DNA of 64,000 nt from a virus (IMGVR_UViG_3300044627_003892), one strand, 5' to 3'. Counted from the first letter of the stretch, positions 83 through 16,300 are shown. Translations and numbers: made by a program. Notes: generated from the sequence alone by a model not told the origin.

Positions 83-865
83 ATGAATTTCGTTTCGACA
101 AAATTAATGGGTGGTTTGGGAAACTATCTATTCCAAATAGCGACAGCGTATTGTCTATGTTTAAGGGACAATAAAGAATTATTATGTGATGTGTCAGATT
201 CTATAGTACCACATAAACCATATGTATATTATTTATCAAATATTTTCAGAAAAATTAATTTTATTAATGGTTTTAGTAATTTTACACCATTAGGGGAAAA
301 TGGGTTTTCATACAGTCAATTACCTAAAATTGATGGGAATGTAAAATTGTACGGTTATTTTCAAAGTGAAAAATATTTTATGGATTATAGAAATGAAATA
401 TTAGAACTTTTTAAAATAGATGATGAAACAAACCAAAAAATAACTGATAAGTATAATGAATTATTAACACTTAATACTTGTTCTATTCATGTTAGACGTG
501 GTGATTATTTGGGTTTACAAAATTATCATCCAATACAGACTATCGAGTATTATCAAAATGCAATTAAAATTATTGGAGAAGAAAACCATTTTGTAATATT
601 TTCTGATGATATAAAATGGTGTGAAGAAAACTTTAATTTCCTAAAAAACAAAACATTTATATCAGGTAATACGGATTATGAAGACCTATATTTAATGTCA
701 ATGTGTAAACATAACATAATAGCCAATTCAACATTTAGTTGGTGGGGTGGATGGTTAAATTGTAATATTGATAAAAAAGTAATAATACCATCTAAATGGT
801 TTGGGATTTCCAATTCACATTTAAATACTAATGATTTATATTGTAATAAATGGATTAAATTATGA
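83..865 (+). CDS. GT11 family alpha-1,2-fucosyl/colitosyltransferase
   Basis: GT11 motifs MGGLGNYLFQ, GYFQSEKYF, SIHVRRGDY, IFSDD, IIANSTFSWW. Confidence 0.9.
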   Translation: MNFVSTKLMGGLGNYLFQIATAYCLCLRDNKELLCDVSDSIVPHKPYVYYLSNIFRKINFINGFSNFTPLGENGFSYSQLPKIDGNVKLYGYFQSEKYFMDYRNEILELFKIDDETNQKITDKYNELLTLNTCSIHVRRGDYLGLQNYHPIQTIEYYQNAIKIIGEENHFVIFSDDIKWCEENFNFLKNKTFISGNTDYEDLYLMSMCKHNIIANSTFSWWGGWLNCNIDKKVIIPSKWFGISNSHLNTNDLYCNKWIKL

Positions 866-1782
866 AAGTATTAGTTACAGGTTCAAATGGATTATTAGGA
901 CGAGCATTAAAAAAAGTTTTAGGAGATGGTCACGTCTACCATACACGAGAAGATGTTGATTTAACAAATTACGAAGAAACATTCAAGTTCTTTCAAGATA
1001 AAGTTTTAAATGAAGGTGTTGATACTATTATCCATACCGCAGCAAGAGTTGGCGGGGTTAACGCAAACATGAATAATAATCAATTATTTTTTGATGATAA
1101 TTACATTATTAATAGTAATGTAATTAAAGTATGTTCACTTTTAAAAGTTGATAATTTTGTTAATATATTATCTACTTGTATTTTTCCTCATGAAAATATT
1201 GTTTACCCATTAACTTCAGAACAAATTGATAACGGGCCTCCCCACCCGTCAAATTACGGGTATTCATATGCGAAAAGATTATCAGGTTATGAAACACAAA
1301 TTTTTAGAAATGTTTTAAATAAAAATTGGTATTCAGTTGTTCCTACAAATTTATATGGTCCTTATGATAATTTTAATTTAGAGGATAGTCATTTAATACC
1401 TGGTATGATTCATAGAGCGTATTTGGCTAAACAAAATAATGAAAAATTTGTGATTTGGGGAGATGGTTCACCATTGAGACAATTTGTATATTCTGAGGAT
1501 ATGGCAAAATTAATTGTTTGGTCTTTAACTAATTGGGTGTCGGAAAAACATTGTATGATGATTGACGAAACCGAAATTTCAGTTATGGAAGTTGCAAACA
1601 TTATTAGTAAAAAATTTGGGTTTAATGATGACGATTTAATTTTTGACGAAACAAAACCTAAAGGTCAATTTAAAAAACCTGCATCATCAGACATTAAAAA
1701 TTTTAATTTTAAATCAATTGAAGACGGTATTAATGAAACTATTGATTGGTTTATACAAAATTACAAAACTGCCAGAAAATGA
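862..1782 (+). CDS. fcl: GDP-L-fucose synthase / GDP-colitose synthase (Fcl/ColC-like epimerase-reductase)
   Basis: VLVTGSNGLLG Rossmann motif, HTAARVGG, STCIFP, YSYAKR (YxxxK), PTNLYGPYDNF, SHLIPG, WGDGSPLRQF. Confidence 0.9.
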   Translation: MKVLVTGSNGLLGRALKKVLGDGHVYHTREDVDLTNYEETFKFFQDKVLNEGVDTIIHTAARVGGVNANMNNNQLFFDDNYIINSNVIKVCSLLKVDNFVNILSTCIFPHENIVYPLTSEQIDNGPPHPSNYGYSYAKRLSGYETQIFRNVLNKNWYSVVPTNLYGPYDNFNLEDSHLIPGMIHRAYLAKQNNEKFVIWGDGSPLRQFVYSEDMAKLIVWSLTNWVSEKHCMMIDETEISVMEVANIISKKFGFNDDDLIFDETKPKGQFKKPASSDIKNFNFKSIEDGINETIDWFIQNYKTARK

Positions 1783-2939
1783 AAAAAATAGATTTAATTC
1801 AAGATACAATTGATAACCAAGATATTGATAATCTTATTCAATGGTTAAAAGAATACCCAAGATTAACAAAAGGACCTAAAACGATTGAGTTTGAAAATAA
1901 ATGGTGTGAATGGTTAGGGTCAAAATATTCTGTATTTGTTAATTCAGGGTCATCCGCAAATTTACTTATGTTATATGCTCTTAAAGCTCTTAACATGTTA
2001 AAAAATAATAAAATTTGTGTACCATCATTATGTTGGGCAACAGATTTATCACCTGTACTTCAGTTTGATATGCACCCATTATTAATTGATTGTAATTTAG
2101 ATAACTTGTCAGTTGATTTAAAACATTTGGAAGAAGTGTTCAAACATGAACAACCATCAGTATTAATCTTAGTTTCTGTACTTGGATTATCTCCTGACAT
2201 GGATTCGATTGTTAAGTTATGTAAAAAATATGATGTTATTTTACTTGAAGATAATTGCGAATCTCAAGGAACTAAATTTAAAGGAACTAAACTTGGTAAC
2301 TTTGGTTTGATGTCGTCATTTTCAACGTATTTTGGGCATACTATGTCAACAATTGAGGGTGGTGTTATTACAACAAATAGTGAGGAAATTTATCAGATAT
2401 TATTACAACTTAGAAGTCATGGGTGGGATAGGGATTTACCTGAATCAAAACAAAAAGAATTGAGAAACAAGTGGGAAGTTTCTGATTTTTCATCCCTTTA
2501 TACGTTTTATGTTCCAGGGTTTAATTTAAGGAGTACTGATTTACAAGCTCAACTTGGGATTCAACAATTATTAAAAGTTGATAAAATGATTGATAATAGA
2601 TATAAAAACTTTTTATATTACAAATCTAAGTTAGAAGGTAAAACATGGTTTCCAGTAACTTTTGATGACAGTTATACGTCAAATTTTGCAATACCTTTTA
2701 TCACTAAAACTATTGAAGATAAAAAAAGTTTAATTAAAGAGTTAGAAGAAAATAATATTGCTTGTCGTCCATTAATTTCGGGTTCAATGGGAACACAACC
2801 ATTTTATAAAAAAATATATGGTGAAAATAAACTACCTAATTGTTCAATTATTGATGATAGAGGAGTTTACGTACCAAATCATGATAAAATGACAGTTGAG
2901 GATATTAATAGAATTTGTGACATCTTATTAAAATATTAA
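1779..2939 (+). CDS. colD: GDP-4-keto-6-deoxy-D-mannose 3-dehydratase (ColD-type, DegT/DnrJ fold)
   Basis: FVNSGSSANLL, EDNCES, SFSTYFGHTMSTIEGG with His (codon 2337-2339) at the PLP-lysine position, RSHGWDRDLP, GFNLRSTDLQA. Start set at 1779 (ATGA overlap with the upstream stop). Confidence 0.8.
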   Translation: MKKIDLIQDTIDNQDIDNLIQWLKEYPRLTKGPKTIEFENKWCEWLGSKYSVFVNSGSSANLLMLYALKALNMLKNNKICVPSLCWATDLSPVLQFDMHPLLIDCNLDNLSVDLKHLEEVFKHEQPSVLILVSVLGLSPDMDSIVKLCKKYDVILLEDNCESQGTKFKGTKLGNFGLMSSFSTYFGHTMSTIEGGVITTNSEEIYQILLQLRSHGWDRDLPESKQKELRNKWEVSDFSSLYTFYVPGFNLRSTDLQAQLGIQQLLKVDKMIDNRYKNFLYYKSKLEGKTWFPVTFDDSYTSNFAIPFITKTIEDKKSLIKELEENNIACRPLISGSMGTQPFYKKIYGENKLPNCSIIDDRGVYVPNHDKMTVEDINRICDILLKY

Positions 2940-2953
2940 TAATTAATGTAAAA

Positions 2954-3730
2954 ATGTTAAAATTTTTTAAACCAATAAGAGGTCATAGAGGTTATTTTTC
3001 ATATATGACTGAATCAGTTGTTAACATGCTTAATGTATTGTTAATCTATCCAAATGAAGAATTTAAAGTATATCATGATTTATCAAATATTGATGGGTAT
3101 GGTAGTCATAATATTTATGATGTCTGTTTTATACAAGATAAAAATGATTATTTTTTAAATAAAAATGAGTATTCTAATATTGAGTTAGTAAATAATATAG
3201 CACAATTAAATCCTTATGACAAGGATACATTTACTAAAGAAAAATTAAAAATGTGTGAATCAATAATAAAAGATAATTTTGTATTAAATGATGAAATGAA
3301 ACAATTGTTTTCATCAAGACACCCTCAAATTGATTTTACAAAAACTATAGGTTTTCATAGAAGGGCAACTGATATGTCAATAATACATGGTTTACCAACA
3401 ATAGATTTATCCATAATATTTGAAACATTAGAAAAAGAAGAATTTGAAAATATATTTTTAATGTGTGATAATCTTAATGATTTAATTAAATTTAAACAAA
3501 GATATGGAAATAAATTAATAACTTTTGACGAGTTAACAGCTTCAACAATTGAAAATAAACCATTTTTTAATTTAAAAAATGATGAAGAATTAATTAAAAA
3601 ACATATACAAGAAATTGTTTTTGGAGTATACACTTTAGGTATGACAAAAAAATTAATATGCACTATGTCTAACTTATCAACATTTTCTATTTTTTCAAAC
3701 TCAAATTTAGATTATATAAAATTAAATTAA
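2954..3730 (+). CDS. Fucosyltransferase-like glycosyltransferase (GT23/NodZ/O-FucT-like GT-B fold)
   Basis: IGFHRRATD resembles the GxHxRxxD GDP-sugar-binding motif, followed by IFLMCD; lies in the GDP-sugar cluster. Confidence 0.55.
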   Translation: MLKFFKPIRGHRGYFSYMTESVVNMLNVLLIYPNEEFKVYHDLSNIDGYGSHNIYDVCFIQDKNDYFLNKNEYSNIELVNNIAQLNPYDKDTFTKEKLKMCESIIKDNFVLNDEMKQLFSSRHPQIDFTKTIGFHRRATDMSIIHGLPTIDLSIIFETLEKEEFENIFLMCDNLNDLIKFKQRYGNKLITFDELTASTIENKPFFNLKNDEELIKKHIQEIVFGVYTLGMTKKLICTMSNLSTFSIFSNSNLDYIKLN

Positions 3731-3735
3731 AAAAT

Positions 3736-4551
3736 ATGATTATACAAAATAAATTACCAAAACATTATTGTGAACTTAGTTATATACAACTAATTGAAGA
3801 ACAATTAGTTAAAGAATTTAACAACGACTATAGCCTGTACATTATTCATTCTGATTTAGATGTGATTGAGGGATTAGATTTTGGAGAAAAAATTAAAAAT
3901 GATACAAATTATAAAATAGCCATTCATGTTGGTAACGAGGTATCATATAACCCAAAATATTACGAATTTTTTGATATTATATTTAGATTTTATTTACAAG
4001 AAAAATGTGATTATAATAAAATATTCCCAATTAATATTGGATTTAATTCTAGTGGTGAATATAACATTTTTCCTAATAAGGGTGAAACATTATCTGAAAG
4101 AACTAATGATGTATTTTTTATGGGTAATAAATCAGTTAGATACGGATTTTATAATTCTATAAATAATTTATCTAAAAAATATGATATAAATTTTACAGAT
4201 GGTTTTAGAAGTGGTTTAGTAATCGAAGATTATTACAATAAATTATCAAACTCTAAAATATGTTTAGTTCCTAATGGAATGAGCCCCGAAACTTTTCGTT
4301 ATAGTGAATCTTTAGGGTCAGGATGTATTGTCATAACAAAGGATAAAATTAATTCTTGGTTTTACGAAAATAGCACAGCAATTTTTGTTAATGATTGGTC
4401 TGAAGTTACAGAAGAATTTATTAAAAATATATTATCATCTAATATTGATTTAAAATATGAAGAAAATCTGAATTATTATGAAAGATGTTTAAGTCCTGAT
4501 GCTAATGCCAAATATATTATTAAAACAATAAAAGAAAAAAAAATAAATTAA
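3736..4551 (+). CDS. Exostosin/GT47-like glycosyltransferase
   Basis: DVFFMG and YYNKLSNSKICLVPNGMSPETFRYSESLGSGCIVI, resembling SKFCLxPxG...RxxEAxxxGCIPV. Confidence 0.55.
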   Translation: MIIQNKLPKHYCELSYIQLIEEQLVKEFNNDYSLYIIHSDLDVIEGLDFGEKIKNDTNYKIAIHVGNEVSYNPKYYEFFDIIFRFYLQEKCDYNKIFPINIGFNSSGEYNIFPNKGETLSERTNDVFFMGNKSVRYGFYNSINNLSKKYDINFTDGFRSGLVIEDYYNKLSNSKICLVPNGMSPETFRYSESLGSGCIVITKDKINSWFYENSTAIFVNDWSEVTEEFIKNILSSNIDLKYEENLNYYERCLSPDANAKYIIKTIKEKKIN

Positions 4552-4552
4552 A

Positions 4553-5533
4553 ATGTCTAATAAAATCGCACTAATAACAGGAATAAATGGTCAAGATGGT
4601 TCGTATTTATCTGAATTTTTGATTAAAAAGGGATATGAAGTTCATGGTACATTAAAACGAAATTCCGTTGCCGAAAACCAAACTTCAAGATTAGATAATA
4701 TATTTAACCAAATTAAATTACATTATGCCGATTTGACAGATTTATCGTCATTAATTTCTGTTATCCAAAAAACAAATCCTGATGAAATTTATAATTTGGC
4801 GGCTCAGTCTCACGTTAGAATTTCATTTGACCAACCAATTTATACCGCAAATGTAACAGGGTTAGGTACTTTAAATTTGTTAGAGGCTGTTAAATTAATA
4901 AAACCTAATACTAAAATTTACCAAGCGTCGTCATCTGAAATGTTTGGTAATTCAATTGATTCTGACGGATACCAAAGAGAAACAACACCTCTTAATCCTG
5001 TTTCTCCATACGGATGTGCTAAAGTATTTAGTTATAACATTTGTCGTAACTACAGAAACTCATACGGTATGTTTATTTCCAACGGTATTTTATTTAACCA
5101 CGAATCACCAAGAAGAGGAACTAACTTTGTGACCAATAAAGTATGTAAAGAAGCGGTTAAAATTAAATTAGGACTATCTAATGAATTAAAATTGGGTAAT
5201 CTTGATGCAACACGAGACTGGGGACATGCGAAAGATTACGTTAGAGCAATGTGGGAAATTTTACAATTAGAAAATCCTGATGATTTTGTTTGTTCGACAG
5301 GTATATCTCATTCAGTTGGTGAACTTTGTGATTATGTATTTTCATCGTTAGGATTGGACTACAAACAATATGTTACTCAAGATGAAAAGTTCCTAAGACC
5401 TGAAGAATTACACGATTTAAAAGGTGATTCATCTAAATTAGTTAATACTACAGGGTGGTCACACGATTACACATTTGAAACGATGTTAGACGAAATGATT
5501 GACTACTGGATGGATTATTATACAATTAAATAA
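4553..5533 (+). CDS. gmd: GDP-mannose 4,6-dehydratase
   Basis: ALITGINGQDGSYL, YNLAAQSHV, YQASSSEMFG, SPYGCAK, GILFNHESPRRG, FVTNKV, LGNLDATRDWGHAKDYV. Confidence 0.97.
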   Translation: MSNKIALITGINGQDGSYLSEFLIKKGYEVHGTLKRNSVAENQTSRLDNIFNQIKLHYADLTDLSSLISVIQKTNPDEIYNLAAQSHVRISFDQPIYTANVTGLGTLNLLEAVKLIKPNTKIYQASSSEMFGNSIDSDGYQRETTPLNPVSPYGCAKVFSYNICRNYRNSYGMFISNGILFNHESPRRGTNFVTNKVCKEAVKIKLGLSNELKLGNLDATRDWGHAKDYVRAMWEILQLENPDDFVCSTGISHSVGELCDYVFSSLGLDYKQYVTQDEKFLRPEELHDLKGDSSKLVNTTGWSHDYTFETMLDEMIDYWMDYYTIK

Positions 5534-6273
5534 TGACAAGAAAAAAAACAATTAGCAAAGACGGTCAGTATATTCCTACTGATGCTAAACCAAAAATGTC
5601 TAAGAAAGACCAAATTAGTGGTATGATTAAAAAGAGTAAGGATAAATTCTTAACTCAAAGTCAACGAGAGTATTACGATAAATTAGTTAGAAATCAAATT
5701 ACAATTTGTTCAGGTCCTGCAGGTGTTGGTAAAAGTTTTATAGCGATGAAAGCTGCGGTTGACTTAATTGCTGACCACACATCTCCTTACGAAAAAATTA
5801 TCATTGTTAGACCGGCAGTTGAAGCTGAGGAAAAACTTGGTTCCTTACCTGGTAATGTTGAAGAGAAATTAGACCCCTATATTTTTCCATCGTATTATCT
5901 ATTAAATAAGATTATAGGTAAAGAGGCAAGAGAAAAATTAAAACAAATGGAGGTTATTGAAGTTTTTGCTTTGGCATATATGAGAGGAATGAACATTGAT
6001 AATTCTATTCTAATATTTGAGGAAGCTCAAAATGCTACACCAAAACAAATGAAATTATTATTAACTCGTATTGGTACTGATAGTAAATTTTTTATATCAG
6101 GTGACTTGGAGCAAACTGACAGATATAAAGATAAAAAACATTCAGGTTTATGGGACGCTATTGAGAAATTTAAAAATATCTCTGAAATTGGTGTTCATGA
6201 ATTTGGAGATGATGATGTTGTTAGAAACCCATTGATTACTGAAATCTTAAAAAGATATGAAGATAGGAATTGA
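5533..6273 (+). CDS. phoH: PhoH-like ATPase
   Basis: GPAGVGKS Walker A, RPAVEAEEKLGSLPG, AYMRG, FEEAQN, GDLEQTD, VVRNPL. Confidence 0.95.
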   Translation: MTRKKTISKDGQYIPTDAKPKMSKKDQISGMIKKSKDKFLTQSQREYYDKLVRNQITICSGPAGVGKSFIAMKAAVDLIADHTSPYEKIIIVRPAVEAEEKLGSLPGNVEEKLDPYIFPSYYLLNKIIGKEAREKLKQMEVIEVFALAYMRGMNIDNSILIFEEAQNATPKQMKLLLTRIGTDSKFFISGDLEQTDRYKDKKHSGLWDAIEKFKNISEIGVHEFGDDDVVRNPLITEILKRYEDRN

Positions 6274-6850
6274 GGTTAATGGTGTATTAAGAGATACCAT
6301 AGGTAAGTTTAAAACAACTTACGAAAAATTTTTAATAGATAATAATTTAGAGAATTCTGAGTCTGAAACACCATTTGAATACAAAATTAATGAACCTATA
6401 GATACGTTAGATTTAATCAATCATTTTTCATTTCAATCTAAGGAAGAATTTTTTAGTTTTTTGTATGAGGAGTTCCCTATGGAAATTTTTGGTCATTCAC
6501 CTTCAACTGAATTATCGTCATTTAATGATTTAAATGATTTATATATTAATTTAAGAGATAAAGTTGAATTTATTATAATTTCTGATGAGATGTCAAAATC
6601 AAAACCAGCAACTTTATTTTTCTTATCAAAATTTGGTTGTCTAATAGAAAAAATATTTTTTTATAATGAGGTGACAAAAAATAAACTATTAGATGAATTA
6701 GATTTAATAGTTACTTCTAACCCTGATATTATTATTAATTACAAAGATAAAGTTGTTAAATATGATACAACTTATAATGATAAACTTAGTTCTGAAGTTT
6801 CAATAACAAAACTAAAAGAATTAGAACCAATAATTGCTGAAAAACTATAA
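6257..6850 (+). CDS. HAD-superfamily 5'(3')-nucleotidase-like protein with degenerate motif I
   Basis: N-terminal KIGIEVNGVLRD aligns with I(D)x(D)GVLxD but has E/N instead of D/D. Confidence 0.5.
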   Translation: MKIGIEVNGVLRDTIGKFKTTYEKFLIDNNLENSESETPFEYKINEPIDTLDLINHFSFQSKEEFFSFLYEEFPMEIFGHSPSTELSSFNDLNDLYINLRDKVEFIIISDEMSKSKPATLFFLSKFGCLIEKIFFYNEVTKNKLLDELDLIVTSNPDIIINYKDKVVKYDTTYNDKLSSEVSITKLKELEPIIAEKL

Positions 6851-7116
6851 TGTTACCAATTTTAAACGAAAATTATTATATTGATTTAGAGGAGATTAAT
6901 TCTTTAATCAATATTGAACCAACTGAACCAATATCAGGAGAAACCGGACAACATATTAGTGTTGTTCAGTATGAACTTATTAAAATAATGATAGAAGTCA
7001 TTATGAGTGAACAAGAAGAAGTTGATGAAAAATTGGGTAATAAATCTCAATTATCAATCCCATTTAAATTAGCATTTAATACACTATTAAATAATAAAAC
7101 TATAAAAAAATACTAA
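6850..7116 (+). CDS. Hypothetical protein
   Basis: 88-aa ORF, TAATG-coupled within the operon. Confidence 0.75.
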   Translation: MLPILNENYYIDLEEINSLINIEPTEPISGETGQHISVVQYELIKIMIEVIMSEQEEVDEKLGNKSQLSIPFKLAFNTLLNNKTIKKY

Positions 7117-7119
7117 AAT

Positions 7120-8178
7120 ATGGAAGATAGAATTTTAAAAATTAAAGAATCAATCTTAAATTTAAAAGACAAAAAAAATAAAATATATTTTTTTGTACAA
7201 GACACTAAAGGTAATGCTAAAGCATCTATAAGATACATTTATCAAATAGCAAATACGTTACTTAAAGAAGGATATAACCCAATAATTTTACATGAAAAAC
7301 CTGATTATTTTGGTGTTTCAAGTTGGCTCGGTGAACAATACTCTAAAATCCCACATCAATCAGTGGAAGGTCAAAATTTACAAATAGCACCTGAAGATTT
7401 TATTATTGTACCTGAAATTTTTGGTTATGTTATGGCTCAATTGACTAACATTAAATGTACTAAAATTGTGTTGTCTCAATCATATGACCAAATTTTTGAA
7501 ACTTTACAACCAGGACAAATATGGTCTCAATTTGGTTTCACAAAATGTATTACAACTTCAGAAATACAAAAAAAATATATCTCTCAATTTATGAGAAATG
7601 TCCCAACTGATATTATTGAACCTGTAATATCTGACGTTTTTGAAAAATCAAAATACCCGGCAAAACCAATTATTGCAATCTCTTCAAGAGAACAAAGAGA
7701 TTCAATTAATTTAATTAAATCATTTTATCAAAAATATCCTCAATTTAGATGGATAACTTTTAGAGATATGAGAGGTATTTCTGAAGAAGAATTTGCAAAT
7801 ACATTAAAAGAGTGTATGTTATCAGTATGGGACGATAGAACAAGTGCGTTTGGTACATTCCCATTAGAGTCAATGAAATGTGGTGTCCCTGTAATTGGTG
7901 TAGTTCCTAAAATGGTACCTGAATGGATGAATGAAGATAACGGAATTTGGATTCAAGACGAATTAAATTTAGCCAATTTTATTGGTGAATATATCCAAAA
8001 TTGGTTAGAAGATAACATTTCGGAAGACATCTATAATGGAATGGAAAAATCTTCATTACAATACAGTGATATAAATGACTTTGAGAATAAAATTATATCG
8101 TTATTTAACGAATATACTAAATCAAAACTAAATGTTTTTGAGACAGAATATAATAAATTACAACCTATAGAACAATAA
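7120..8178 (+). CDS. GT-B (GT4-like) glycosyltransferase
   Basis: C-terminal FGTFPLESMKCGVPVIG matches the FGxxxxEAMxxGxPVI signature. Confidence 0.7.
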   Translation: MEDRILKIKESILNLKDKKNKIYFFVQDTKGNAKASIRYIYQIANTLLKEGYNPIILHEKPDYFGVSSWLGEQYSKIPHQSVEGQNLQIAPEDFIIVPEIFGYVMAQLTNIKCTKIVLSQSYDQIFETLQPGQIWSQFGFTKCITTSEIQKKYISQFMRNVPTDIIEPVISDVFEKSKYPAKPIIAISSREQRDSINLIKSFYQKYPQFRWITFRDMRGISEEEFANTLKECMLSVWDDRTSAFGTFPLESMKCGVPVIGVVPKMVPEWMNEDNGIWIQDELNLANFIGEYIQNWLEDNISEDIYNGMEKSSLQYSDINDFENKIISLFNEYTKSKLNVFETEYNKLQPIEQ

Positions 8179-8182
8179 AATT

Positions 8183-8989
8183 ATGGAAAATATTTTAGAC
8201 TTAAGTATCATCTTACCAATTAAGACAAATTTAGTTAAGGACTTTGTGGAACTTTTTACTAAATCAATTGAATCAATCCAATTACAATCAATTAAACCTA
8301 AAGAACTGATAATTGTTCATTCAAGTGAAGAAAAATTAATTGAGTTTTTAGAATCTTTTGATTTTGGGGATTTAAATGTTAAAAAAATTAAATTTGAAAG
8401 TGAACCTAACTTTTCATCTCAGGTTAATTTAGGTATTGAAAGTTCATCATCTAAATGGGTAAGTATTTTAGAATTTGATGATGAATATGCTAAAATTTGG
8501 TTTAAAAACGTTAAAAAATATATTGAAGTTTATCCTGAAATAGATGCGTTTTTACCAATTGTTGTTGATGTTGATAATAAAACAGTATTTGCAGGATTTA
8601 CTAATGAAGCAACATTCGCCGCAAATTTCAGTCAAGAAATGGGTTATTTAACTAACGAAACGTTATTAAATTATCAAAATTTTCAAACATCGGGTATGGT
8701 ATTTAAAAAATCAATTATTGAGGATTTTGGTGGTTTTAAGGCTAGTTTTAAATTAACATTCCCATATGAATTTTTATTAAGAATGACTTATAATTCTGTA
8801 AAAATTATGACTATACCAAAAATTGGTTACAAACATATGAACCTTAGAGAAGGGTCAATATTTTGGGAATATAAAAATGGTGAAAATAAAGTGAGTGACA
8901 GTGAAGTTCAGTTTTGGGTATCTTCTGCAAAAAAAGAATATTTCTTTAATACCGATAGAAACATAAAATATACTCAAGAAAATGCTTGA
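8183..8989 (+). CDS. GT2 family glycosyltransferase
   Basis: LSIILP N-terminus, ELIIV, NLGIESSSSKWVSILEFDD (GT-A DxD region), YEFLLRM. Confidence 0.75.
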   Translation: MENILDLSIILPIKTNLVKDFVELFTKSIESIQLQSIKPKELIIVHSSEEKLIEFLESFDFGDLNVKKIKFESEPNFSSQVNLGIESSSSKWVSILEFDDEYAKIWFKNVKKYIEVYPEIDAFLPIVVDVDNKTVFAGFTNEATFAANFSQEMGYLTNETLLNYQNFQTSGMVFKKSIIEDFGGFKASFKLTFPYEFLLRMTYNSVKIMTIPKIGYKHMNLREGSIFWEYKNGENKVSDSEVQFWVSSAKKEYFFNTDRNIKYTQENA

Positions 8990-9726
8990 TGACTATAAGT
9001 TCAAGCACAATACAGATTGAGGTTACTAAAAAAAAGAAACCAAGTTCTGAAAATTATTTTGACATAAGAGAAGAAAATGCGGTTAGAATGTTTTTAACCG
9101 CATCTACTTTTGATGAAAAAAACAAAATATATAACGATTATTTGAGACATCCTTTAGATAAAATGATATCCTCAATTATTCGAAGATATAAATTGTATAG
9201 AAAAGATATGGATTTTATTGAAATTCATACTGATACACATTCTTTTTTGATGACAAAAATTGATAAGTTTAGTCCGTCAAAAGAAAAGAAAGCGTATTCT
9301 TATTTTGGTACCATTTGTAAAAATTATCTGATGGGACAAATTCTGAAAGACCAAAAAGAAATGAATCGAAAAGTGTCTTATGAAGATATATCTAGTGATT
9401 TAGAAAATAGGTCAGAAATGGTTTATTACTTAGATATTGAACCAGAGGTTGAGGTAAATATTATACCAATTTTAAAATCATATATTAAAGACGTTTTAGA
9501 AGAAAATGATTTAAATGATAATGAAATAAAATTGGGTATTGCTTTAATTGAGGTACTTGACAATTATGAAACAATATTTCCAGCAACTGATAACAATAAG
9601 TTCAATAAAAATGTAATTCTTTTATCTTTAAGAGAAATGACTAATCTTTCAACTAAAGAAATAAGAGCTTCCATGAAAAAATATAAAAAAATATATTTAG
9701 GTCTTATAGAAATCAAACCAGATTAA
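8986..9726 (+). CDS. gp55: gp55-like late RNA polymerase sigma factor
   Basis: IDKFSPSKEKKAYSYFGTICKNYL resembles sigma region 2 of T4-type late sigmas (KFDP..K.AFSY...I..N); sits upstream of morphogenesis genes. Confidence 0.6.
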   Translation: MMTISSSTIQIEVTKKKKPSSENYFDIREENAVRMFLTASTFDEKNKIYNDYLRHPLDKMISSIIRRYKLYRKDMDFIEIHTDTHSFLMTKIDKFSPSKEKKAYSYFGTICKNYLMGQILKDQKEMNRKVSYEDISSDLENRSEMVYYLDIEPEVEVNIIPILKSYIKDVLEENDLNDNEIKLGIALIEVLDNYETIFPATDNNKFNKNVILLSLREMTNLSTKEIRASMKKYKKIYLGLIEIKPD

Positions 9727-9742
9727 ATTTTTTTTTAAAAAC

Positions 9743-9750
9743 TATTTATT
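9743..9750 (+). promoter_or_regulatory. Putative late promoter TATTTATT, 3 nt before ATG 9754
   Basis: One of about 30 copies in sense orientation just upstream of unit starts. Confidence 0.6.
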
Positions 9751-9753
9751 GGT

Positions 9754-10116
9754 ATGACAAAACCCAAAAAAAAACAAATTAATTTTACTAAAGACTCAAT
9801 TCTTGTTTTAATGCAAGAAATTTACAATGAGTTAGTAGAACAACGCTCAACGGCTATTAGAATTCAAAATAAAATGGTTGCCATGATGAAAGAACCTGAA
9901 GACATGACTCTAATTGGACCTGTTATTGAAAAACAACAAAAAATAATAAATGATTGTGTTGAGAAAAAATTACAACTTTCAAAGTTACAATCAGGTATTT
10001 GGGAAAAACAAAGTTCAAAAGAAGAATCATTTGATATTTCAAATATGGATGATGATGTTTTGCAAGGTTTATTAGATAAAGACATAAATTCTGATAATCA
10101 AAAATTTAGTTTATAA
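9754..10116 (+). CDS. Hypothetical coiled-coil protein
   Basis: 120-aa ORF with late motif, coupled to the next gene. Confidence 0.8.
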   Translation: MTKPKKKQINFTKDSILVLMQEIYNELVEQRSTAIRIQNKMVAMMKEPEDMTLIGPVIEKQQKIINDCVEKKLQLSKLQSGIWEKQSSKEESFDISNMDDDVLQGLLDKDINSDNQKFSL

Positions 10117-12038
10117 TGGCAATTAGTATTGACGAAGGGTTTGAACAAAGTAAGAATAAACTTAAAGTTTATAAGACTTTTCTGCAATCAAAATCGGAAA
10201 TTAAAAAACAAAAACTAAAAAACAAACTTGACGAAAAAAAACTTTCAAGACAACAAAAATCTTTAGAAAGGGCTAAAAAAAATCAAGAACGAAAAGAAAG
10301 AGCTCAATCAAGTTATGAACAACTTATTGATATTTTACAAATGGCCAAAGGTGCCGCAAAACCTAAAGATAATTACATTACAAATCTTTTAGTCAAAGTT
10401 ACTAAACAAATTAAACCAAAAATTTCTGAAATAATTTCAGAAGAAATGTTAAAATCTTTAAATTGTTCCGAAGAAAGTACGTTTAACAACCTTGCAATTT
10501 ATATTAAAGTAAGTAGTTTAGATTTAGGTAAAATTTTACTTATAAGTCCTACGGATACATGGGGAAAATGTATTTACGAACAAAATCCTTACGACTATTC
10601 TTCACCAAAAAAATCAACTAACCAACTTTTATATTACCTAATACAAACTCCAACGGCTCTGTCTCAAGGTGGTATTAATGGTATTACTAACCCTGTTAAT
10701 ACTAAGTATAAAGGACAAAGTGGACAGGACCTTTTTGACATACAATTTGTTACCGTAGATAATACCGGTACACCAGGTCAATATTATAAAATTACCTTAT
10801 CAAATAGGGTTTTAGGTTTAAATAGAGTTTCCGATTTTATTAATGATTATTTTAAAACTAATTCATTATTAGATTTACGATATCTACTAACAACTTTAAC
10901 TGACATTATTTTAGGTTGTGTTTCCGCAGATTTAAAACTTGGGGATAATCAATTAGATGACTCAACAAGATTTGGTTTAATCATACAACGAATATTAGGT
11001 CAATGTCAGGATTACAACGTTGAAATTGATGTCGGGGGACAAGCAAAATATCCCGAAGTAGATAATTCAACAGACACTATTTTTGAAATGGAATCTAATG
11101 ATTTAGAGTTTATTAACGAAAGGGTTCAATCAATTAAAGTAGGGATTAGAGAATTTGTTGATTGTAATAATATTGCGTTACCAATATCGGACACAAATTA
11201 TTTATCTAACAATATATCTAACGTTGGTGACGATGGTGAAAATTTAGATAATGAAATAAATAATATTATAACTAATTTAGTTAATGACCCAAGATGGGTT
11301 GCCAATTTTCCATTTCCTGACGCAATATCTTTAAGTTTAAATAAAGATTTTATAAGTCAATTACCTATGGCGATTATAAAATCAATTTTTTCTCCAAAAG
11401 TTTTATTACCATATATTATTATGGCAAAGGCTATTGGTAACATGTACGATGAAGGAATTGAGGGATATAATAATTTTTTAAGAAACAACAGGGCGTTAGT
11501 TCAGGCCATCGGTAGTCGAATAATGGCTTTGTTTTTAGAAGCTCTACTGATTGAGATTAAAAAAATTGTTATAGCATTGGCCAAAGCAATAATACAAGAC
11601 ATGACTGCGGAAAAAAAGGCAACAATTGCTACAGTAATAAATAAGATTGTTTCACTTTCAGTTTTAATTGCTCAAACAATCAATGATTTTCGAGAGTGTA
11701 GGAGTTTAGTTGATTATTTGTTGAAATTATTTCAATTAAGAATTCCTTTACCAAAACAAATTACACCAACACCAATTTTAGCATTATCTGACATATTAGA
11801 TGGTGCGTCGACAAATAGGGCATATATGAATCATTTAGAGTTTTTACAAAGCCTTGGGTTACCAACAGGACCAAATCCTAATGGAACACCAATGTATTCA
11901 AACATGGAAGGATTTTCAATAATGCAAGGTTTAAATAAAGAAAAGGAAGAAAATGGTAAAACAGAAATGTTTATTAAACCAATACCTATAGCGGGATATG
12001 CAACCAGCCCAATTAGAGTTACAGGAAAATACTTTTAA
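10116..12038 (+). CDS. Hypothetical protein, probable tail/baseplate component
   Basis: 640-aa ORF co-transcribed with the baseplate spike gene; no recognisable motif. Confidence 0.45.
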   Translation: MAISIDEGFEQSKNKLKVYKTFLQSKSEIKKQKLKNKLDEKKLSRQQKSLERAKKNQERKERAQSSYEQLIDILQMAKGAAKPKDNYITNLLVKVTKQIKPKISEIISEEMLKSLNCSEESTFNNLAIYIKVSSLDLGKILLISPTDTWGKCIYEQNPYDYSSPKKSTNQLLYYLIQTPTALSQGGINGITNPVNTKYKGQSGQDLFDIQFVTVDNTGTPGQYYKITLSNRVLGLNRVSDFINDYFKTNSLLDLRYLLTTLTDIILGCVSADLKLGDNQLDDSTRFGLIIQRILGQCQDYNVEIDVGGQAKYPEVDNSTDTIFEMESNDLEFINERVQSIKVGIREFVDCNNIALPISDTNYLSNNISNVGDDGENLDNEINNIITNLVNDPRWVANFPFPDAISLSLNKDFISQLPMAIIKSIFSPKVLLPYIIMAKAIGNMYDEGIEGYNNFLRNNRALVQAIGSRIMALFLEALLIEIKKIVIALAKAIIQDMTAEKKATIATVINKIVSLSVLIAQTINDFRECRSLVDYLLKLFQLRIPLPKQITPTPILALSDILDGASTNRAYMNHLEFLQSLGLPTGPNPNGTPMYSNMEGFSIMQGLNKEKEENGKTEMFIKPIPIAGYATSPIRVTGKYF

Positions 12039-12039
12039 T

Positions 12040-12237
12040 ATGGACCCAAAAATATTTAATATAATAAAAGAAAATAAAGATAGACCAAACAGAGATTTGG
12101 AGACCGCAATGAACTATCTAAATGAAGAATTTGAAAAAACTAAAGATTTAATAGTTAAATTATCTAAACATTTAGATAATGTTGAATTTAACTATAATAA
12201 GGTTTTAAAAGAATACGAATCTCGTAAAAAATCATGA
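12040..12237 (+). CDS. Hypothetical protein
   Basis: ATG 12040 one nt after the upstream TAA; MDPKIFNII... Confidence 0.7.
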   Translation: MDPKIFNIIKENKDRPNRDLETAMNYLNEEFEKTKDLIVKLSKHLDNVEFNYNKVLKEYESRKKS

Positions 12238-13796
12238 TGAAAAAAATAATATATGGTGGTAGAGTAATTGCCAATAATGACCCATGGATGATTGGTCGTG
12301 TTAGAATTTTTCCTGATGATGAAGCGATTCAACAGATATTAATTTCTAAAAAAGATGAATATGATTCTCAAGGTGTATCAATATTAAATGATAATCAAAG
12401 TGATGTTAGGGATGTTTATCAATTCACGTCTAAAGACCCATTTGTTTATCTACCTCTATTACCAATAAATCTTTCAATTTTACCTGAAATAAATGAGTAT
12501 GTTAATATAATTTACTCTAACAAAGAAGAAAATACAGGTAGAAAAAATCAATATTATGTTGCAAGTACTAAAAGTACTGTAATGAATATTGCATATGAAC
12601 AAAATTCTGCAACAAAGTCAATTTTAGCTGAAGGAGCTAACATTGCTCAAAATTTACCAATTAAAAACTATGATGGAACATATCCAAATAGTAAATCTAA
12701 AGGTGTTTTTGCTGAACCTCAAGATATTGGAATTTATTCGAAAGGAAGGTCTGATATTATTTTAAAAGATGGTGAAGTTTTAATTAGAGCGGTAAAAACA
12801 CTATCCCTTGAGCAAACACAAAGACCTCAGGTTAATCAAAAAAGGACTTTTTTACAACTATCATATTTTGATAAAAAATTAACTTATTTACCTGAAAAAA
12901 CTGTTCAAGTACCATTTTTGGTCGATAATAATGTAAAAAAATTGTTAGAGTATGATGTTATTAATATTAATAACTCATCACAAGGAAATTATACTGGTAG
13001 TATTAAAATTTACAATTTACCACCTATAGATTTAACAAAAGTTTCTGTATTTAATCAAGATACTTCATTGCCGGCAACAGTTACTACACCGGCTTATATT
13101 GACGAATTTATTAATGTATCTGAAGAAGAATTAGTGTTAAGAATAAATAACGCAATAGGAGGTTTAAATAAAGGTAAAGTTGATGGGTATAATAAACCTG
13201 ATTATTTTGCATCTGATGGTGAAAGATTTCCATTTTATTACAGACCTGGTGTTAATTTAAAAATGGCATTACAAAACCCAATAGTATCAAATAGTTACAT
13301 AAACGCTGCTTCAATAACTAATAAAATTAAATTTATTGGTTCAACACTAAATAAAGGTTATGATTTAGTTTCCGCTGAAAATCGAACTGGAAGAATTACA
13401 GATTATAATAGAATTAAAACACAAGCCGTTCAAGTTTCACCAATCCAAGAAGGTTATGCTGTTTTAGGTGGCGATAATGTTTATTTATTATCACATAATT
13501 CTTCAATACCAGGAAAGAAAAAATTAAATCTTGGTGATGACACAGTTTATGGAATTCCTGTTGATGAATTATCGTTAAATTATATTAGTAACACTTCTGG
13601 GATTGTTAGAGGAGACCAATTAAAAGAACTTTTAAATTTAATTATAACATTTTTAACAAATCATACCCACCCTTGGCATAACTTATCCCCCGATGAAAAA
13701 CCTTTTAGTGGGGACGGTCCTTCTAAGTCATCAATAACAAGTGAACTTGCTTTATTTGATTCTAAAGTAATTAATCAAAATATTAGAACGAATTGA
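12234..13796 (+). CDS. Baseplate central spike protein (gp5/VgrG/gpV-like)
   Basis: N-terminal GRVIANNDPWMIGRVRI (gp5 OB-fold signature DPxxxGRVRV) and C-terminal FLTNHTHPWH (HxH metal-binding spike tip). Confidence 0.75.
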   Translation: MMKKIIYGGRVIANNDPWMIGRVRIFPDDEAIQQILISKKDEYDSQGVSILNDNQSDVRDVYQFTSKDPFVYLPLLPINLSILPEINEYVNIIYSNKEENTGRKNQYYVASTKSTVMNIAYEQNSATKSILAEGANIAQNLPIKNYDGTYPNSKSKGVFAEPQDIGIYSKGRSDIILKDGEVLIRAVKTLSLEQTQRPQVNQKRTFLQLSYFDKKLTYLPEKTVQVPFLVDNNVKKLLEYDVININNSSQGNYTGSIKIYNLPPIDLTKVSVFNQDTSLPATVTTPAYIDEFINVSEEELVLRINNAIGGLNKGKVDGYNKPDYFASDGERFPFYYRPGVNLKMALQNPIVSNSYINAASITNKIKFIGSTLNKGYDLVSAENRTGRITDYNRIKTQAVQVSPIQEGYAVLGGDNVYLLSHNSSIPGKKKLNLGDDTVYGIPVDELSLNYISNTSGIVRGDQLKELLNLIITFLTNHTHPWHNLSPDEKPFSGDGPSKSSITSELALFDSKVINQNIRTN

Positions 13797-13815
13797 TATT
13801 TATTGAAAAAAGATA

Positions 13816-15309: not shown

Positions 15310-15824
15310 AAAAAGTAACATTAAAAGAAAACGAATACGTTAAATTATTAAAATTTGTTTTATCCGAAGCTTTTACGGCAGGGGAAGATAAGATTGACGC
15401 AATTTTAGATAAAATTAGTCAATCAGGTATGGAATCAATCACACCTGAAGAAAGAGAAACTCTTGAAAAATTTACTAAGGGTATTTCAATAGAAGATGAG
15501 TCATCATCTAAAGAAGATTTTATGACAAAAGCGGGTGGTTTTTGGTCTTTTGAATTTCCAGGAATGCCATCGTTTAAATTTAGATATGAGTCAACTGAAG
15601 ATACTGAAGATGAAAAAATACATACAGGATATCTAACAGTTGATGATAGTGATTACTATGGTGAAATTTATTGTGATACGGAAGGTAATTTCCAAACTTG
15701 TATGTTTGAAAATACAACTGAAGGAACCAACGTATTTGAGGATTATGAAGGTTTAGAACACGATATTGAAGTGTTTTTAGATGTTGTCTGTAATGACCTA
15801 AAAGAAGATGATATGATGGCGTAA
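15306..15824 (+). CDS. Hypothetical acidic protein with propeptide-like N-terminus
   Basis: MKKVTLKE...VLSE, then DKIDAILDKISQSGMESITPEERETL (resembles the DUF6576 helical hairpin). Confidence 0.6.
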   Translation: MKKVTLKENEYVKLLKFVLSEAFTAGEDKIDAILDKISQSGMESITPEERETLEKFTKGISIEDESSSKEDFMTKAGGFWSFEFPGMPSFKFRYESTEDTEDEKIHTGYLTVDDSDYYGEIYCDTEGNFQTCMFENTTEGTNVFEDYEGLEHDIEVFLDVVCNDLKEDDMMA

Positions 15825-15825
15825 T

Positions 15826-16269
15826 ATGAAAAATTTAAATAACATAATTAAAAAAGTTCTTAAAGAGGAAAATCAAAGATACATGTTTTTCTCTAACTTA
15901 GAACAAATGAAACGCCAATGTGAAATACTACTTGGTAAAGATAAACAAATGATAGAATCAATTTTAGATAATGGACACGATTGGGCTCAAGACCATATTG
16001 CCGAAGCTAAAAATAATATGGACCAAGTATTTGATTTTATCATGAATGAAATCGAGGGTGAAGATTTTAGTAGTGATGACGCTGTAGAAGTAATGTATGA
16101 AGGTCGTAAAAAAGCGGGTACTAAATTATGTGCTCGTGGTAAAGCAGCGGCCGAGTCAAAATATGACGTGTATCCCTCAGCTTACGCTAATGGTTATGCG
16201 ATTCAAGTATGTAAAGGTAAAAAACCTGGTTTAGACGGAAAAAAACGTTGTTCAGGAGCATATTGTTAA
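15826..16269 (+). CDS. Hypothetical protein with basic Cys-containing C-terminal module
   Basis: MKNLNNIIKKVLKEE N-terminus; KLCARGKAAA...YPSAYANGYA..CKG. Confidence 0.75.
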   Translation: MKNLNNIIKKVLKEENQRYMFFSNLEQMKRQCEILLGKDKQMIESILDNGHDWAQDHIAEAKNNMDQVFDFIMNEIEGEDFSSDDAVEVMYEGRKKAGTKLCARGKAAAESKYDVYPSAYANGYAIQVCKGKKPGLDGKKRCSGAYC

Positions 16270-16300
16270 TCAAAAATTTTGAATTATTAAAAAATCATAG

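What the first reader, a model, noticed from the sequence alone, without database searches (positions are those of the whole stretch)
83..5533. Phage-encoded GDP-L-colitose (3,6-dideoxyhexose) pathway with a GT11 transferase
Seen: gmd, an Fcl/ColC-like reductase and a 386-aa DegT-fold enzyme whose PLP-lysine position is His (FSTYFG-H-TMSTIEGG, codon 2337-2339). Established: this His substitution marks the sugar 3-dehydratases ColD and E1; Gmd+ColD+ColC is the GDP-colitose route; GT11 enzymes transfer fucose or colitose in alpha-1,2 linkage. Inference: the phage makes GDP-colitose, not just GDP-fucose, and transfers it to a phage or host glycan. That would be unusual for a phage.
Basis: partly seen in the sequence, partly recalled or inferred. 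Interest (0 to 1): 0.8.

Follow-up and report, generated by a model that had tools for sequence, protein, structure and literature searches.

The report
Phage GDP-colitose sugar pathway cassette
An uncultured marine phage carries, in one tight gene block, the three enzymes bacteria use to turn GDP-mannose into the rare dideoxy sugar colitose, plus several fucose-type transferases, so it probably puts colitose on a phage or host glycan; the chemistry is known and the cassette is common in aquatic phages, but I found no paper that reports it.

Summary
Genes 83-5533 (+ strand) encode a GT11 transferase, an Fcl-family epimerase/reductase, a 386-aa DegT-fold enzyme, a family-less ORF, a GT47-like protein and Gmd. 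The DegT enzyme has His187 (CAT, 2337-2339) at the position of ColD His188.

The DegT enzyme scores far better against E. coli O55 ColD (E 6.5e-66) than against the Fe-S dehydratase E1 (8.5e-34) or perosamine synthase (6.5e-29). It lacks the E1 cysteine motif. It groups with 147 His-type homologues and apart from Lys-type aminotransferases. It is under purifying selection (dN/dS about 0.09).

A GDP-L-colitose route is the best reading (about 0.7). Three corrections apply:
- The reductase is no closer to ColC than to Fcl. It resembles true GDP-fucose synthases, so GDP-fucose may be made as well.
- GT11 is one of three fucosyltransferase-type candidates. ORF 2954-3730 has a FUT8/NodZ-like predicted fold, and a GT10 gene lies just upstream of the window.
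- The cassette is not rare in phages. At least 586 IMG/VR viral stretches encode relatives, and cultured cyanophage ACG-2014f has gmd-fcl-colD(His)-GT11.

This scan has flagged the same cassette in other phage genomes. It is known chemistry in a new, apparently unreported setting.

The parts
83..865 (+). GT11 family glycosyltransferase (260 aa), candidate alpha-1,2 fucosyl/colitosyl transferase
   Evidence: Pfam PF01531 scores 102 bits against a cut-off of 23.9. The HVRRGDY motif is kept. It is 31% identical to E. coli O55 WbgN, 31% to the O126 GT11 gene annotated alpha-1,2-fucosyltransferase and 35% to the cyanophage ACG-2014f GT11. dN/dS is 0.2-0.25 against relatives.
862..1782 (+). Fcl/GMER-family GDP-4-keto-sugar epimerase/4-reductase (306 aa), proposed to play the ColC role; overlaps both neighbours by 4 nt
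   Evidence: Best PDB hit is human GDP-L-fucose synthase at E 1.2e-67; E. coli Fcl scores 1e-36. NCBIfam GDP-L-fucose synthase gives 187 bits, below the cut-off of 500. It is 31% identical to E. coli ColC and 29% to E. coli Fcl. The residues equivalent to E. coli Fcl S107, C109, Y136, K140 and H179 are all kept.
1779..2939 (+). ColD-type PLP/PMP-dependent sugar 3-dehydratase (386 aa), catalytic His187
   Evidence: PDB hits: ColD 6.5e-66, E1 8.5e-34, perosamine synthase 6.5e-29. It is 33% identical to E. coli O55 ColD over 372 aa. It has no E1 Cys motif. It sits in a His-type clade. dN/dS is 0.09.
2337..2339 (+). CAT codon for His187, at the position of the PLP-binding Lys of DegT aminotransferases and of ColD His188
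   Evidence: Invariant in 120 of 120 near relatives.
2954..3730 (+). ORF4 (258 aa): cryptic fucosyltransferase-superfamily protein (FUT8/NodZ-like predicted fold)
   Evidence: No Pfam, NCBIfam or PHROG hit. The AF2 model has pLDDT 91.9. The listed best Foldseek PDB hits (50 shown; 54 with E <= 0.001) are FUT8, NodZ, POFUT2, AtFUT1 and POFUT1, down to E 2e-8. AFDB hits include GT23 and O-fucosyltransferase entries at TM about 0.7. The motif H135-R136-R137-x-T139-D140 is invariant and aligns with the GT11 HVRRGDY motif.
3736..4551 (+). Putative glycosyltransferase (271 aa), weak GT47/exostosin-like; variable cassette position
   Evidence: PF03016 scores 25.8 bits, below its cut-off of 33.4. Relatives carry a methyltransferase or a DUF6165 protein at this position instead.
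4553..5533 (+). GDP-mannose 4,6-dehydratase Gmd (326 aa)
   Evidence: PF16363 scores 392 bits. TIGR01472 scores 388 bits against a cut-off of 415. All 11 PDB hits with E <= 1e-40 are GDP-mannose 4,6-dehydratases, best at 3.3e-97. It is the only 4,6-dehydratase in the window.
5533..6273 (+). PhoH-like ATPase; conserved phage neighbour that marks the end of the sugar-nucleotide block
   Evidence: PF02562 scores 212 bits. It is syntenic in relatives.
7120..8989 (+). Two further glycosyltransferase genes (GT1/GT4-like at 7120-8178, GT2 at 8183-8989) of the same glycan island
   Evidence: Pfam PF00534 scores 27.6 bits and PF00535 scores 32.9 bits. Both are conserved in relatives.

Best explanation
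The block is a phage-borne GDP-L-colitose cassette inside a larger island of soluble glycosyltransferases.

Inferred mechanism:
1. Host GDP-mannose is oxidised and dehydrated by the phage Gmd to GDP-4-keto-6-deoxy-D-mannose.
2. The ColD-type enzyme, as its PMP form, makes a Schiff base at C4. His187 abstracts the C4' proton so that the 3-OH leaves. Hydrolysis gives GDP-4-keto-3,6-dideoxy-D-mannose, and glutamate regenerates PMP. No Fe-S cluster or E3 reductase is needed.
3. The Fcl-family enzyme epimerises C5 (Cys/His pair) and reduces C4 (Ser-Tyr-Lys triad, NAD(P)H) to give GDP-L-colitose, which is 3-deoxy-L-fucose. Acting directly on the Gmd product, the same enzyme would give GDP-L-fucose, so both donors may be made.
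4. One or more of three fucosyltransferase-type enzymes transfer the sugar to a glycan built by the neighbouring GT2/GT4 enzymes. These are the GT10 just upstream of the window, GT11 at 83-865 and the FUT8/NodZ-like ORF4.

No protein encoded by the + strand ORFs at 83-16732, nor any annotated product of the upstream part, looks like a flippase, polymerase or polyprenyl-phosphate transferase. The acceptor is therefore most likely cytoplasmic: a phage (virion) protein, or a host intermediate.

What is shown: gene identities, the His, family placement, conserved catalytic residues, synteny and purifying selection. What is inferred: substrate, product, transferase assignment and acceptor.
For: - ColD identity: PDB scores ColD 6.5e-66, E1 8.5e-34, perosamine synthase 6.5e-29, with His187 aligned to His188.
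- No E1-type Cys motif.
- The review PMC8987622 states that His-for-Lys is the key difference from aminotransferases, and that ColD lacks the [2Fe-2S] cluster of E1 and SpnQ.
- All 147 of the top 150 representatives that cover the site have His. The only Lys in the alignment is the phage's own second DegT.
- The trees put the enzyme in a His-type clade (SH-aLRT 100) apart from the Lys-type enzymes at E. coli loci L014 and L015 and the phage DegT2.
- GDP context: Gmd is the only 4,6-dehydratase in the window, and there is no cytidylyltransferase or CDP-glucose dehydratase.
- Among the best 80 IMG/VR viral loci, 68 have Gmd or an Fcl-like gene within 7 kb, 36 have GT11 and none has a CDP-glucose dehydratase.
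- The gene pair fcl-like then colD, overlapping by 4 nt, is the same in E. coli O55. The two genes are also adjacent in that order in cyanophage ACG-2014f and huge phage LR756502.
- The Fcl-like enzyme keeps S107, C109, Y136, K140 and H179.
- The GT11 enzymes WbgN and FUT2 both accept GDP-Col and GDP-Fuc, so donor supply decides what is transferred (PMC11987014).
- ColD dN/dS is 0.09.
- No convincing transmembrane proteins in the locus.
Against: - No enzyme was assayed.
- The reductase is not a ColC orthologue. It is nearer to bona fide GDP-fucose synthases, so it could favour the fucose branch.
- Nucleotide specificity inside the His-type family is not uniform. A SAR11 subclade, 41-44% identical to the phage enzyme, sits beside a CDP-glucose 4,6-dehydratase.
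- 34 of 80 bacterial loci have neither Gmd nor Fcl nearby.
- C. jejuni enzymes 62-67% identical to E. coli ColD act on GDP-heptose (PMC10440746).
- A relative (L004) has no gmd at this locus.
- I could not place E1 itself in the tree, because no sequence was available to me.
- The acceptor is unknown.
Confidence: 0.7

Rival explanations
1. Fucose only. The cassette makes GDP-L-fucose through Gmd and the Fcl-like enzyme. The His-type DegT protein is inactive, or contributes nothing to the final glycan.
For: The reductase looks like a genuine GDP-fucose synthase: human GFS E 1.2e-67, and no nearer to ColC than to Fcl. Three fucosyltransferase-type GTs are present.
Against: ColD-like dN/dS is 0.09. 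His and the other conserved residues (D158, S182, R212, N249, R251, R330) are kept across distant relatives. Fcl-colD adjacency is conserved from E. coli to three divergent phage lineages. An inert gene would not be kept this way.
Confidence: 0.07
2. Different substrate. The His-type dehydratase acts on another nucleotide sugar, such as CDP- or dTDP-4-keto-6-deoxyglucose or GDP-6-deoxy-4-keto-heptose. The product would then be a different 3,6-dideoxy sugar.
For: SAR11 homologues sit beside a CDP-glucose 4,6-dehydratase (TIGR02622, 414 bits) and a cytidylyltransferase-like gene. C. jejuni ColD-like enzymes use GDP-heptose. JGI auto-annotation calls the relatives 'CDP-6-deoxy-D-xylo-4-hexulose-3-dehydrase'.
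Against: The CDP context is a single derived clade that does not contain the phage enzyme. No CDP or dTDP pathway gene is in the window, and the only dehydratase is a Gmd whose PDB hits with E <= 1e-40 are all GMDs. 68 of 80 viral loci pair the enzyme with Gmd or Fcl, and none with a CDP-glucose dehydratase. No heptose-nucleotide genes, cupin epimerase or separate C4 reductase of the C. jejuni type were seen. The RfbH model scores 196 bits against a cut-off of 423.
Confidence: 0.08
3. Diverted intermediate. ColD does make GDP-4-keto-3,6-dideoxymannose, but this is processed to something other than colitose. One route would be transamination by the island's Lys-type DegT followed by acetylation by the adjacent GNAT, giving a 4-acetamido-3,4,6-trideoxy sugar. 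Another would be reduction without C5 epimerisation.
For: A Lys-type DegT (ArnB-like, 1.8e-40) plus a GNAT lie about 4 kb upstream in the near-identical contig L011. The Fcl-like enzyme is not an orthologue of characterised ColC.
Against: The DegT2/GNAT pair is absent from relatives that keep fcl-colD, so the two modules are independent. The reductase overlapping colD keeps the Cys/His epimerase pair. The fcl-colD pairing is the conserved unit.
Confidence: 0.1

Closest known systems
E. coli O55:H7 GDP-L-colitose pathway (Gmd, ColD/WbdK, ColC/WbdJ, GT11 colitosyltransferase WbgN)
   Same: The same four enzyme families are present. colC-type and colD genes are adjacent and overlap by 4 nt in the same order. 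His is at the ColD His188 position. There is no Fe-S motif.
   Different: Only 33% (ColD), 31% (ColC) and 31% (WbgN) identity. The phage reductase is closer to GDP-fucose synthases. The phage locus has no ManB/ManC or GDP-mannose mannosyl hydrolase (gmm-type) gene and no Wzx/Wzy. It sits in a virus next to PhoH and structural genes, with extra fucosyltransferase-type GTs.
E1 (DdhC/RfbH), CDP-6-deoxy-L-threo-D-glycero-4-hexulose 3-dehydrase of Yersinia and Salmonella
   Same: DegT fold, with His replacing the PLP lysine, and C3 deoxygenation chemistry.
   Different: E1 carries a [2Fe-2S] cluster, needs the reductase E3 and uses a CDP sugar. The phage enzyme lacks the Cys motif, has no E3 or CDP genes nearby, and scores 120 bits against E1 versus 226 bits against ColD.
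C. jejuni HS:5/HS:11 GDP-3,6-dideoxy-heptose C3-dehydratase
   Same: A ColD-family PLP enzyme acting on a GDP-linked 4-keto-6-deoxy sugar (PMC10440746).
   Different: It uses a heptose substrate, followed by a separate epimerase and a C4 reductase. The phage has a Gmd and a bifunctional Fcl-type enzyme instead.
gmd-fcl-colD(His)-GT11 cassette of Synechococcus phage ACG-2014f (Atlauavirus), annotated only as epimerases, aminotransferase and glycosyltransferase
   Same: The same four gene families sit together in a cultured T4-like cyanophage. His is conserved, and a GT11 lies directly after colD.
   Different: Identities are 34% (ColD), 29% (Fcl-like) and 35% (GT11). gmd lies upstream rather than downstream. 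There is no ORF4 homologue.
Chlorovirus PBCV-1 GMD/GMER (virus-encoded GDP-fucose and GDP-rhamnose synthesis); recalled from my own knowledge, not checked here
   Same: A virus encodes the GDP-mannose-derived 6-deoxyhexose pathway and its own soluble glycosyltransferases to glycosylate virion proteins.
   Different: It is a eukaryotic giant virus with no 3-dehydratase, so it makes no dideoxy sugar.

Membership tests
ColD (GDP-4-keto-6-deoxy-D-mannose 3-dehydratase) | DegT/aspartate-aminotransferase type fold | tested here: met
   PF01041 E 2e-65 over 370 residues. Full-length alignment to the ColD crystal sequence.
ColD (GDP-4-keto-6-deoxy-D-mannose 3-dehydratase) | His in place of the PLP-binding Lys (His188) | tested here: met
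   His187 aligns with the position that is H, K or N in 2GMS, 2R0T and 3B8X. Codon CAT at 2337-2339. Feature taken from PMC8987622.
ColD (GDP-4-keto-6-deoxy-D-mannose 3-dehydratase) | No [2Fe-2S] cysteine motif, and no E3 reductase partner | tested here: met
   There is no Cys between residues 160 and 329, and the regex for C-x(45-70)-C-x-C-x(5-10)-C finds nothing. The exact spacing of the motif is recalled from memory; 'four cysteines' is. No E3-like gene was noticed in the locus.
ColD (GDP-4-keto-6-deoxy-D-mannose 3-dehydratase) | Closer to ColD than to E1 or to Lys-type aminotransferases; groups with His-type enzymes in a tree | tested here: met
   226 bits against ColD, 120 against E1 and 104 against perosamine synthase. 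His-type clade with SH-aLRT 100 against three Lys-type outgroups. E1 itself could not be included.
ColD (GDP-4-keto-6-deoxy-D-mannose 3-dehydratase) | Uses the GDP-linked Gmd product as substrate | not testable with these tools
   Context only. Gmd lies 1.6 kb downstream and is the only 4,6-dehydratase in the window. 68 of 80 viral loci have Gmd or Fcl, and none has a CDP-glucose dehydratase. A SAR11 subclade in CDP context shows the family is not uniform.
ColC (GDP-L-colitose synthase) | Fcl/GMER-family SDR with a Ser-Tyr-Lys triad and a Cys/His epimerase pair | tested here: met
   Equivalents of S107, C109, Y136, K140 and H179 are all kept.
ColC (GDP-L-colitose synthase) | Orthology to characterised ColC rather than to Fcl | tested here: not met
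   31% identity and 130 bits against E. coli ColC; 29% and 144 bits against E. coli Fcl; 232 bits against human GDP-fucose synthase. I therefore file it as Fcl family proposed to do ColC chemistry, not as a ColC member.
ColC (GDP-L-colitose synthase) | Encoded next to colD | tested here: met
   4-nt overlap with colD, as in E. coli O55. An Fcl-like gene lies within 7 kb of colD in 56 of 80 viral loci.
Gmd (GDP-mannose 4,6-dehydratase) | Reaches the family model score | tested here: inconclusive
   PF16363 scores 392 bits (cut-off 27), but the equivalog TIGR01472 scores 388 bits, just under its cut-off of 415. All 11 PDB hits with E <= 1e-40 are GMDs, best at 3.3e-97.
GT11 (alpha-1,2-fucosyl/colitosyltransferases) | Family model score and the HxRRGD motif | tested here: met
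   PF01531 scores 102 bits against 23.9. H136, R138, R139 and D141 are invariant in alignment A5.
GT11 (alpha-1,2-fucosyl/colitosyltransferases) | Colitose rather than fucose as donor | not testable with these tools
   Equidistant (31%) from WbgN and from the O126 GT11 gene annotated alpha-1,2-fucosyltransferase. WbgN and FUT2 each accept both donors (PMC11987014).
Fucosyltransferase superfamily (GT23/NodZ/FUT8-like), for ORF4 | Fold, plus the Arg-containing GDP-binding motif | tested here: inconclusive
   Fold is met: the listed best Foldseek PDB hits (50 shown) are fucosyltransferases, best E 2e-8, TM by query 0.62-0.66. The HRRxTD motif is invariant. However, there is no sequence-family hit, and hhalign against GT11 gives only 36% probability.
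E1 (CDP-sugar 3-dehydrase), considered and rejected | Fe-S motif, the RfbH equivalog score and a CDP-glucose pathway context | tested here: not met
   No motif. NF011936 scores 196 bits against a cut-off of 423. No CDP genes.

The most novel reading that the evidence does not exclude
Abundant large marine phages (contigs up to about 280-320 kb) use this cassette and their soluble glycosyltransferases to glycosylate their own virion proteins in the cytoplasm, without any lipid carrier. The glycan would carry colitose, which would be the first 3,6-dideoxyhexose found on a virus particle. The variable cassettes around the conserved fcl-colD core would then act like a phage 'serotype' locus.
Probability: 0.3. 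Interest if true: 0.7.

Novelty: new member of a known kind. Interest (0 to 1): 0.45.

Why it matters
Colitose is known as an O-antigen sugar of a few Gram-negative bacteria. If phages make it, a rare antigenic dideoxy sugar is part of virus-driven glycan chemistry in the ocean. The cassette occurs in hundreds of IMG/VR contigs and in very many marine metagenome contigs.

It would add a concrete, testable case to the still thin evidence that tailed phages build their own complex glycans. It also points to cultured cyanophages (ACG-2014f) in which the prediction can be checked directly.

There is a practical correction too: automatic pipelines name these genes 'aminotransferase' or 'CDP-...-3-dehydrase'.

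Tried and rejected
- blastn of the phage colD against E. coli genomes found nothing. I reached the E. coli O55 reference genes by walking the CB9615 chromosome.
- No whole genome is held for the window. JGI loci could not be used as handles, so I could not ask whether relative L004 has gmd elsewhere.
- P0122, on a 306-kb contig, could not be looked up.
- I could not obtain an E1/RfbH sequence for the tree. None of the 14 control genomes reaches the family cut-off.
- The ColD structure papers (PMC2533848, PMC2242600) are not held. GDP-contact residues were therefore not mapped from the literature; I report only conservation.
- The GT11 donor could not be resolved by similarity.
- Profile comparison of ORF4 with GT11 was weak, at 36% probability. 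The ORF4 assignment rests on the predicted fold.
- PHROG and Pfam gave nothing for the large proteins at 10116-15309, which might be acceptors.
- I considered the cassette as part of a classical O-antigen (Wzx/Wzy) locus and rejected that. There are no convincing membrane proteins: a crude hydropathy scan flags only isolated segments in ColD and in the 640-aa ORF.

Full report
WHAT IS THERE

The window is an uncultured, AT-rich (25-30% GC over the first 17 kb) tailed phage with distant T4-like packaging genes. PHROGs finds a major head protein (18067-19959, -), a portal (23948-25804, -) and a large terminase (27313-29058, -). The terminase is only about 27% identical to those of Flavobacterium phage 'immuto' and T4-like cyanophages. 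No cultured phage is close.

On the + strand, genes are packed with overlaps or gaps of -4, -4, +14, +5, +1 and -1 nt:
- GT11 (83-865)
- Fcl-family SDR (862-1782)
- DegT-fold enzyme (1779-2939)
- ORF4 (2954-3730)
- GT47-like protein (3736-4551)
- Gmd (4553-5533)
- PhoH (5533-6273)
- two more GTs after that

Contig L011 differs from the window at 4 of 12,222 overlapping bases. It shows what lies just upstream of the window: a DNA polymerase exonuclease fragment, dUTPase, a GT2_5/GT4 protein, three GT2 genes, a Lys-type DegT with a GNAT acetyltransferase, and a GT10 fucosyltransferase-like gene directly before the GT11.

His187 of the 386-aa protein is encoded by CAT at 2337-2339. In HMMER alignments to the ColD crystal sequences it aligns with the residue that is His in wild type, Lys in the H188K entry and Asn in the H188N entry. 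All 120 near relatives (82-100% identity) keep it.

WHICH ENZYME IS IT?

Against all PDB sequences the order is:
- ColD: 226 bits, E 6.5e-66
- E1: 120 bits
- GDP-perosamine synthase: 104 bits
- other sugar aminotransferases below that

A 2022 review states that His-for-Lys is the key difference between sugar 3-dehydratases and aminotransferases. It also states that E1 and SpnQ carry a four-cysteine [2Fe-2S] site and need a reductase, while ColD has no cluster and regenerates PMP with glutamate (PMC8987622).

The phage protein has no Cys between residues 160 and 329, and no such motif.

An exhaustive HMMER search of 1.84 billion representatives gave 716 hits below 1e-30. All 147 of the best 150 that cover the site have His. 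The single Lys in my alignment is the phage's own second DegT.

Trees rooted on three Lys-type enzymes (the E. coli DegT-family genes at L014 and L015, and phage DegT2) put the phage enzyme inside the His-type clade with SH-aLRT 100. One caveat: I had no E1 sequence to add.

WHICH NUCLEOTIDE SUGAR?

This is the weakest link, so I tested it by context.

In 80 bacterial and archaeal loci with homologues:
- 40 have Gmd and/or an Fcl-like gene within 9 kb
- 34 have neither
- 6, all SAR11, have a CDP-glucose 4,6-dehydratase (TIGR02622, 414 bits) and a cytidylyltransferase-like gene instead

On the tree, the GDP context is spread from the base (the E. coli ColD clade) to the tips. The CDP context is one derived clade that excludes the phage enzyme.

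In viruses the link is much tighter. IMG/VR holds at least 586 stretches encoding relatives. Of the best 80 (44-89% identity), 68 have Gmd or an Fcl-like gene within 7 kb, 38 have both, 36 have a GT11, none has a CDP-glucose dehydratase, and 78 show His.

In the window itself, Gmd is the only 4,6-dehydratase, and no cytidylyltransferase or ManC is present. All 11 PDB hits of the Gmd with E <= 1e-40 are GMDs, best at 3.3e-97.

C. jejuni enzymes 62-67% identical to ColD work on GDP-heptose (PMC10440746). That pathway uses a separate epimerase and reductase, which are not seen here.

THE REDUCTASE

It keeps the Ser-Tyr-Lys triad and the Cys109/His179 pair of E. coli GDP-fucose synthase (the roles of these residues are from my own knowledge). 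It should therefore epimerise and reduce, giving an L-sugar.

It is not a ColC orthologue. It is 31% identical to E. coli ColC and 29% to E. coli Fcl, but scores 232 bits against human GDP-fucose synthase.

Many bacterial colD-adjacent reductases are also Fcl-like rather than ColC-like. The ColC function therefore seems to be filled by different Fcl-family lineages.

Colitose is 3-deoxy-L-fucose. Fcl chemistry applied to the 3-deoxy intermediate gives GDP-colitose, and applied to the Gmd product gives GDP-fucose. The phage may make both.

THE TRANSFERASES

The GT11 is a clear family member. It is equidistant (31%) from the colitosyltransferase WbgN and from the O126 GT11 gene annotated alpha-1,2-fucosyltransferase. 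WbgN and human FUT2 each accept both GDP-Col and GDP-Fuc, so donor supply sets the outcome (PMC11987014).

ORF4 has no family hit. Its homologues came only from metagenome and assembly contigs, all unnamed. It gave a confident AF2 model (pLDDT 91.9). The listed best PDB matches (50 shown; 54 with E <= 0.001) are all fucosyltransferases: FUT8, NodZ, POFUT2, AtFUT1 and POFUT1. AFDB matches include GT23 and O-fucosyltransferase entries. Its invariant HRRxTD motif aligns with the GT11 HVRRGDY motif.

With the upstream GT10, three GDP-fucose-type transferases flank the pathway.

WHERE DOES THE SUGAR GO?

No protein encoded at 83-16732 shows convincing transmembrane segments, and nothing resembles Wzx, Wzy or a polyprenyl-phosphate transferase. 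I therefore favour cytoplasmic glycosylation of a phage protein over O-antigen-style assembly. This is inference only.

The genes between ORF4 and PhoH vary among relatives:
- GT47-like plus Gmd here
- a methyltransferase plus Gmd in L001
- a DUF6165 protein and no Gmd in L004

GT10-GT11-fcl-colD-ORF4 is constant.

HOW NEW IS IT?

Cultured cyanophage ACG-2014f carries gmd-fcl-colD(His)-GT11. These are annotated only as epimerases, aminotransferase and glycosyltransferase. Huge phage LR756502 carries fcl-colD(His).

Text searches found no paper that links colitose or a sugar 3-dehydratase to a phage- or virus-encoded pathway.

Other agents of this scan have flagged and confirmed the same cassette in other phage genomes.

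The finding is solid but ordinary chemistry. It is a new member of the ColD pathway family in a widespread, undescribed viral setting.

Noticed in passing
L043:6011-10170, also L047, L049, L050, L052, L069 (SAR11 genomes): A His-type, ColD-like enzyme with no Fe-S Cys motif sits beside a CDP-glucose 4,6-dehydratase, a cytidylyltransferase-like gene and a Lys-type DegT. These loci form one well-supported clade. This may be an Fe-S-free, E3-independent CDP-sugar 3-dehydratase.
   Followed up: partly
Proteins P0137, P0148, P0166, P0267, P0275 (homologues of window 1779-2939): Several ColD homologues (609-888 aa; those I checked are 38-54% identical to the phage enzyme) are split by an insertion three residues after the catalytic His (GHHM | S...CLHN | STxEGG). 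Pfam confirms an intein with a LAGLIDADG endonuclease in the three I scanned (P0137, P0148, P0275). Four show the full junction, and P0275 ends before the C-terminal junction. The element targets the most conserved active-site motif.
   Followed up: partly
L011:5192-6770 (about 3 kb upstream of the window start, in a near-identical contig): A second DegT enzyme that keeps the PLP lysine (best PDB hit ArnB, 1.8e-40) is followed by a GNAT acetyltransferase. This amino-sugar module belongs to the same island and is absent from relatives L001 and L004, which carry UDP-glucose dehydrogenase and methyltransferases instead.
   Followed up: partly
window 862-1782: The phage Fcl-like enzyme scores far higher against eukaryotic GDP-fucose synthases (human 232 bits, Naegleria 222) than against E. 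coli Fcl (130). It is only 61-62% identical to the orthologues in relatives whose ColD is 82-87% identical.
   Followed up: no
window 10116-15309: Three large ORFs (640, 520 and 497 aa) lie directly after the glycosyltransferase island and before the head module. The last has 22% Ser+Thr. None has a Pfam or PHROG match. They are possible structural proteins or glycosylation targets.
   Followed up: no
window 34254-36362: A 702-aa protein gives a very strong match to PHROG 4871, 'ATP-dependent protease' (791 bits). This is an uncommon phage gene.
   Followed up: no
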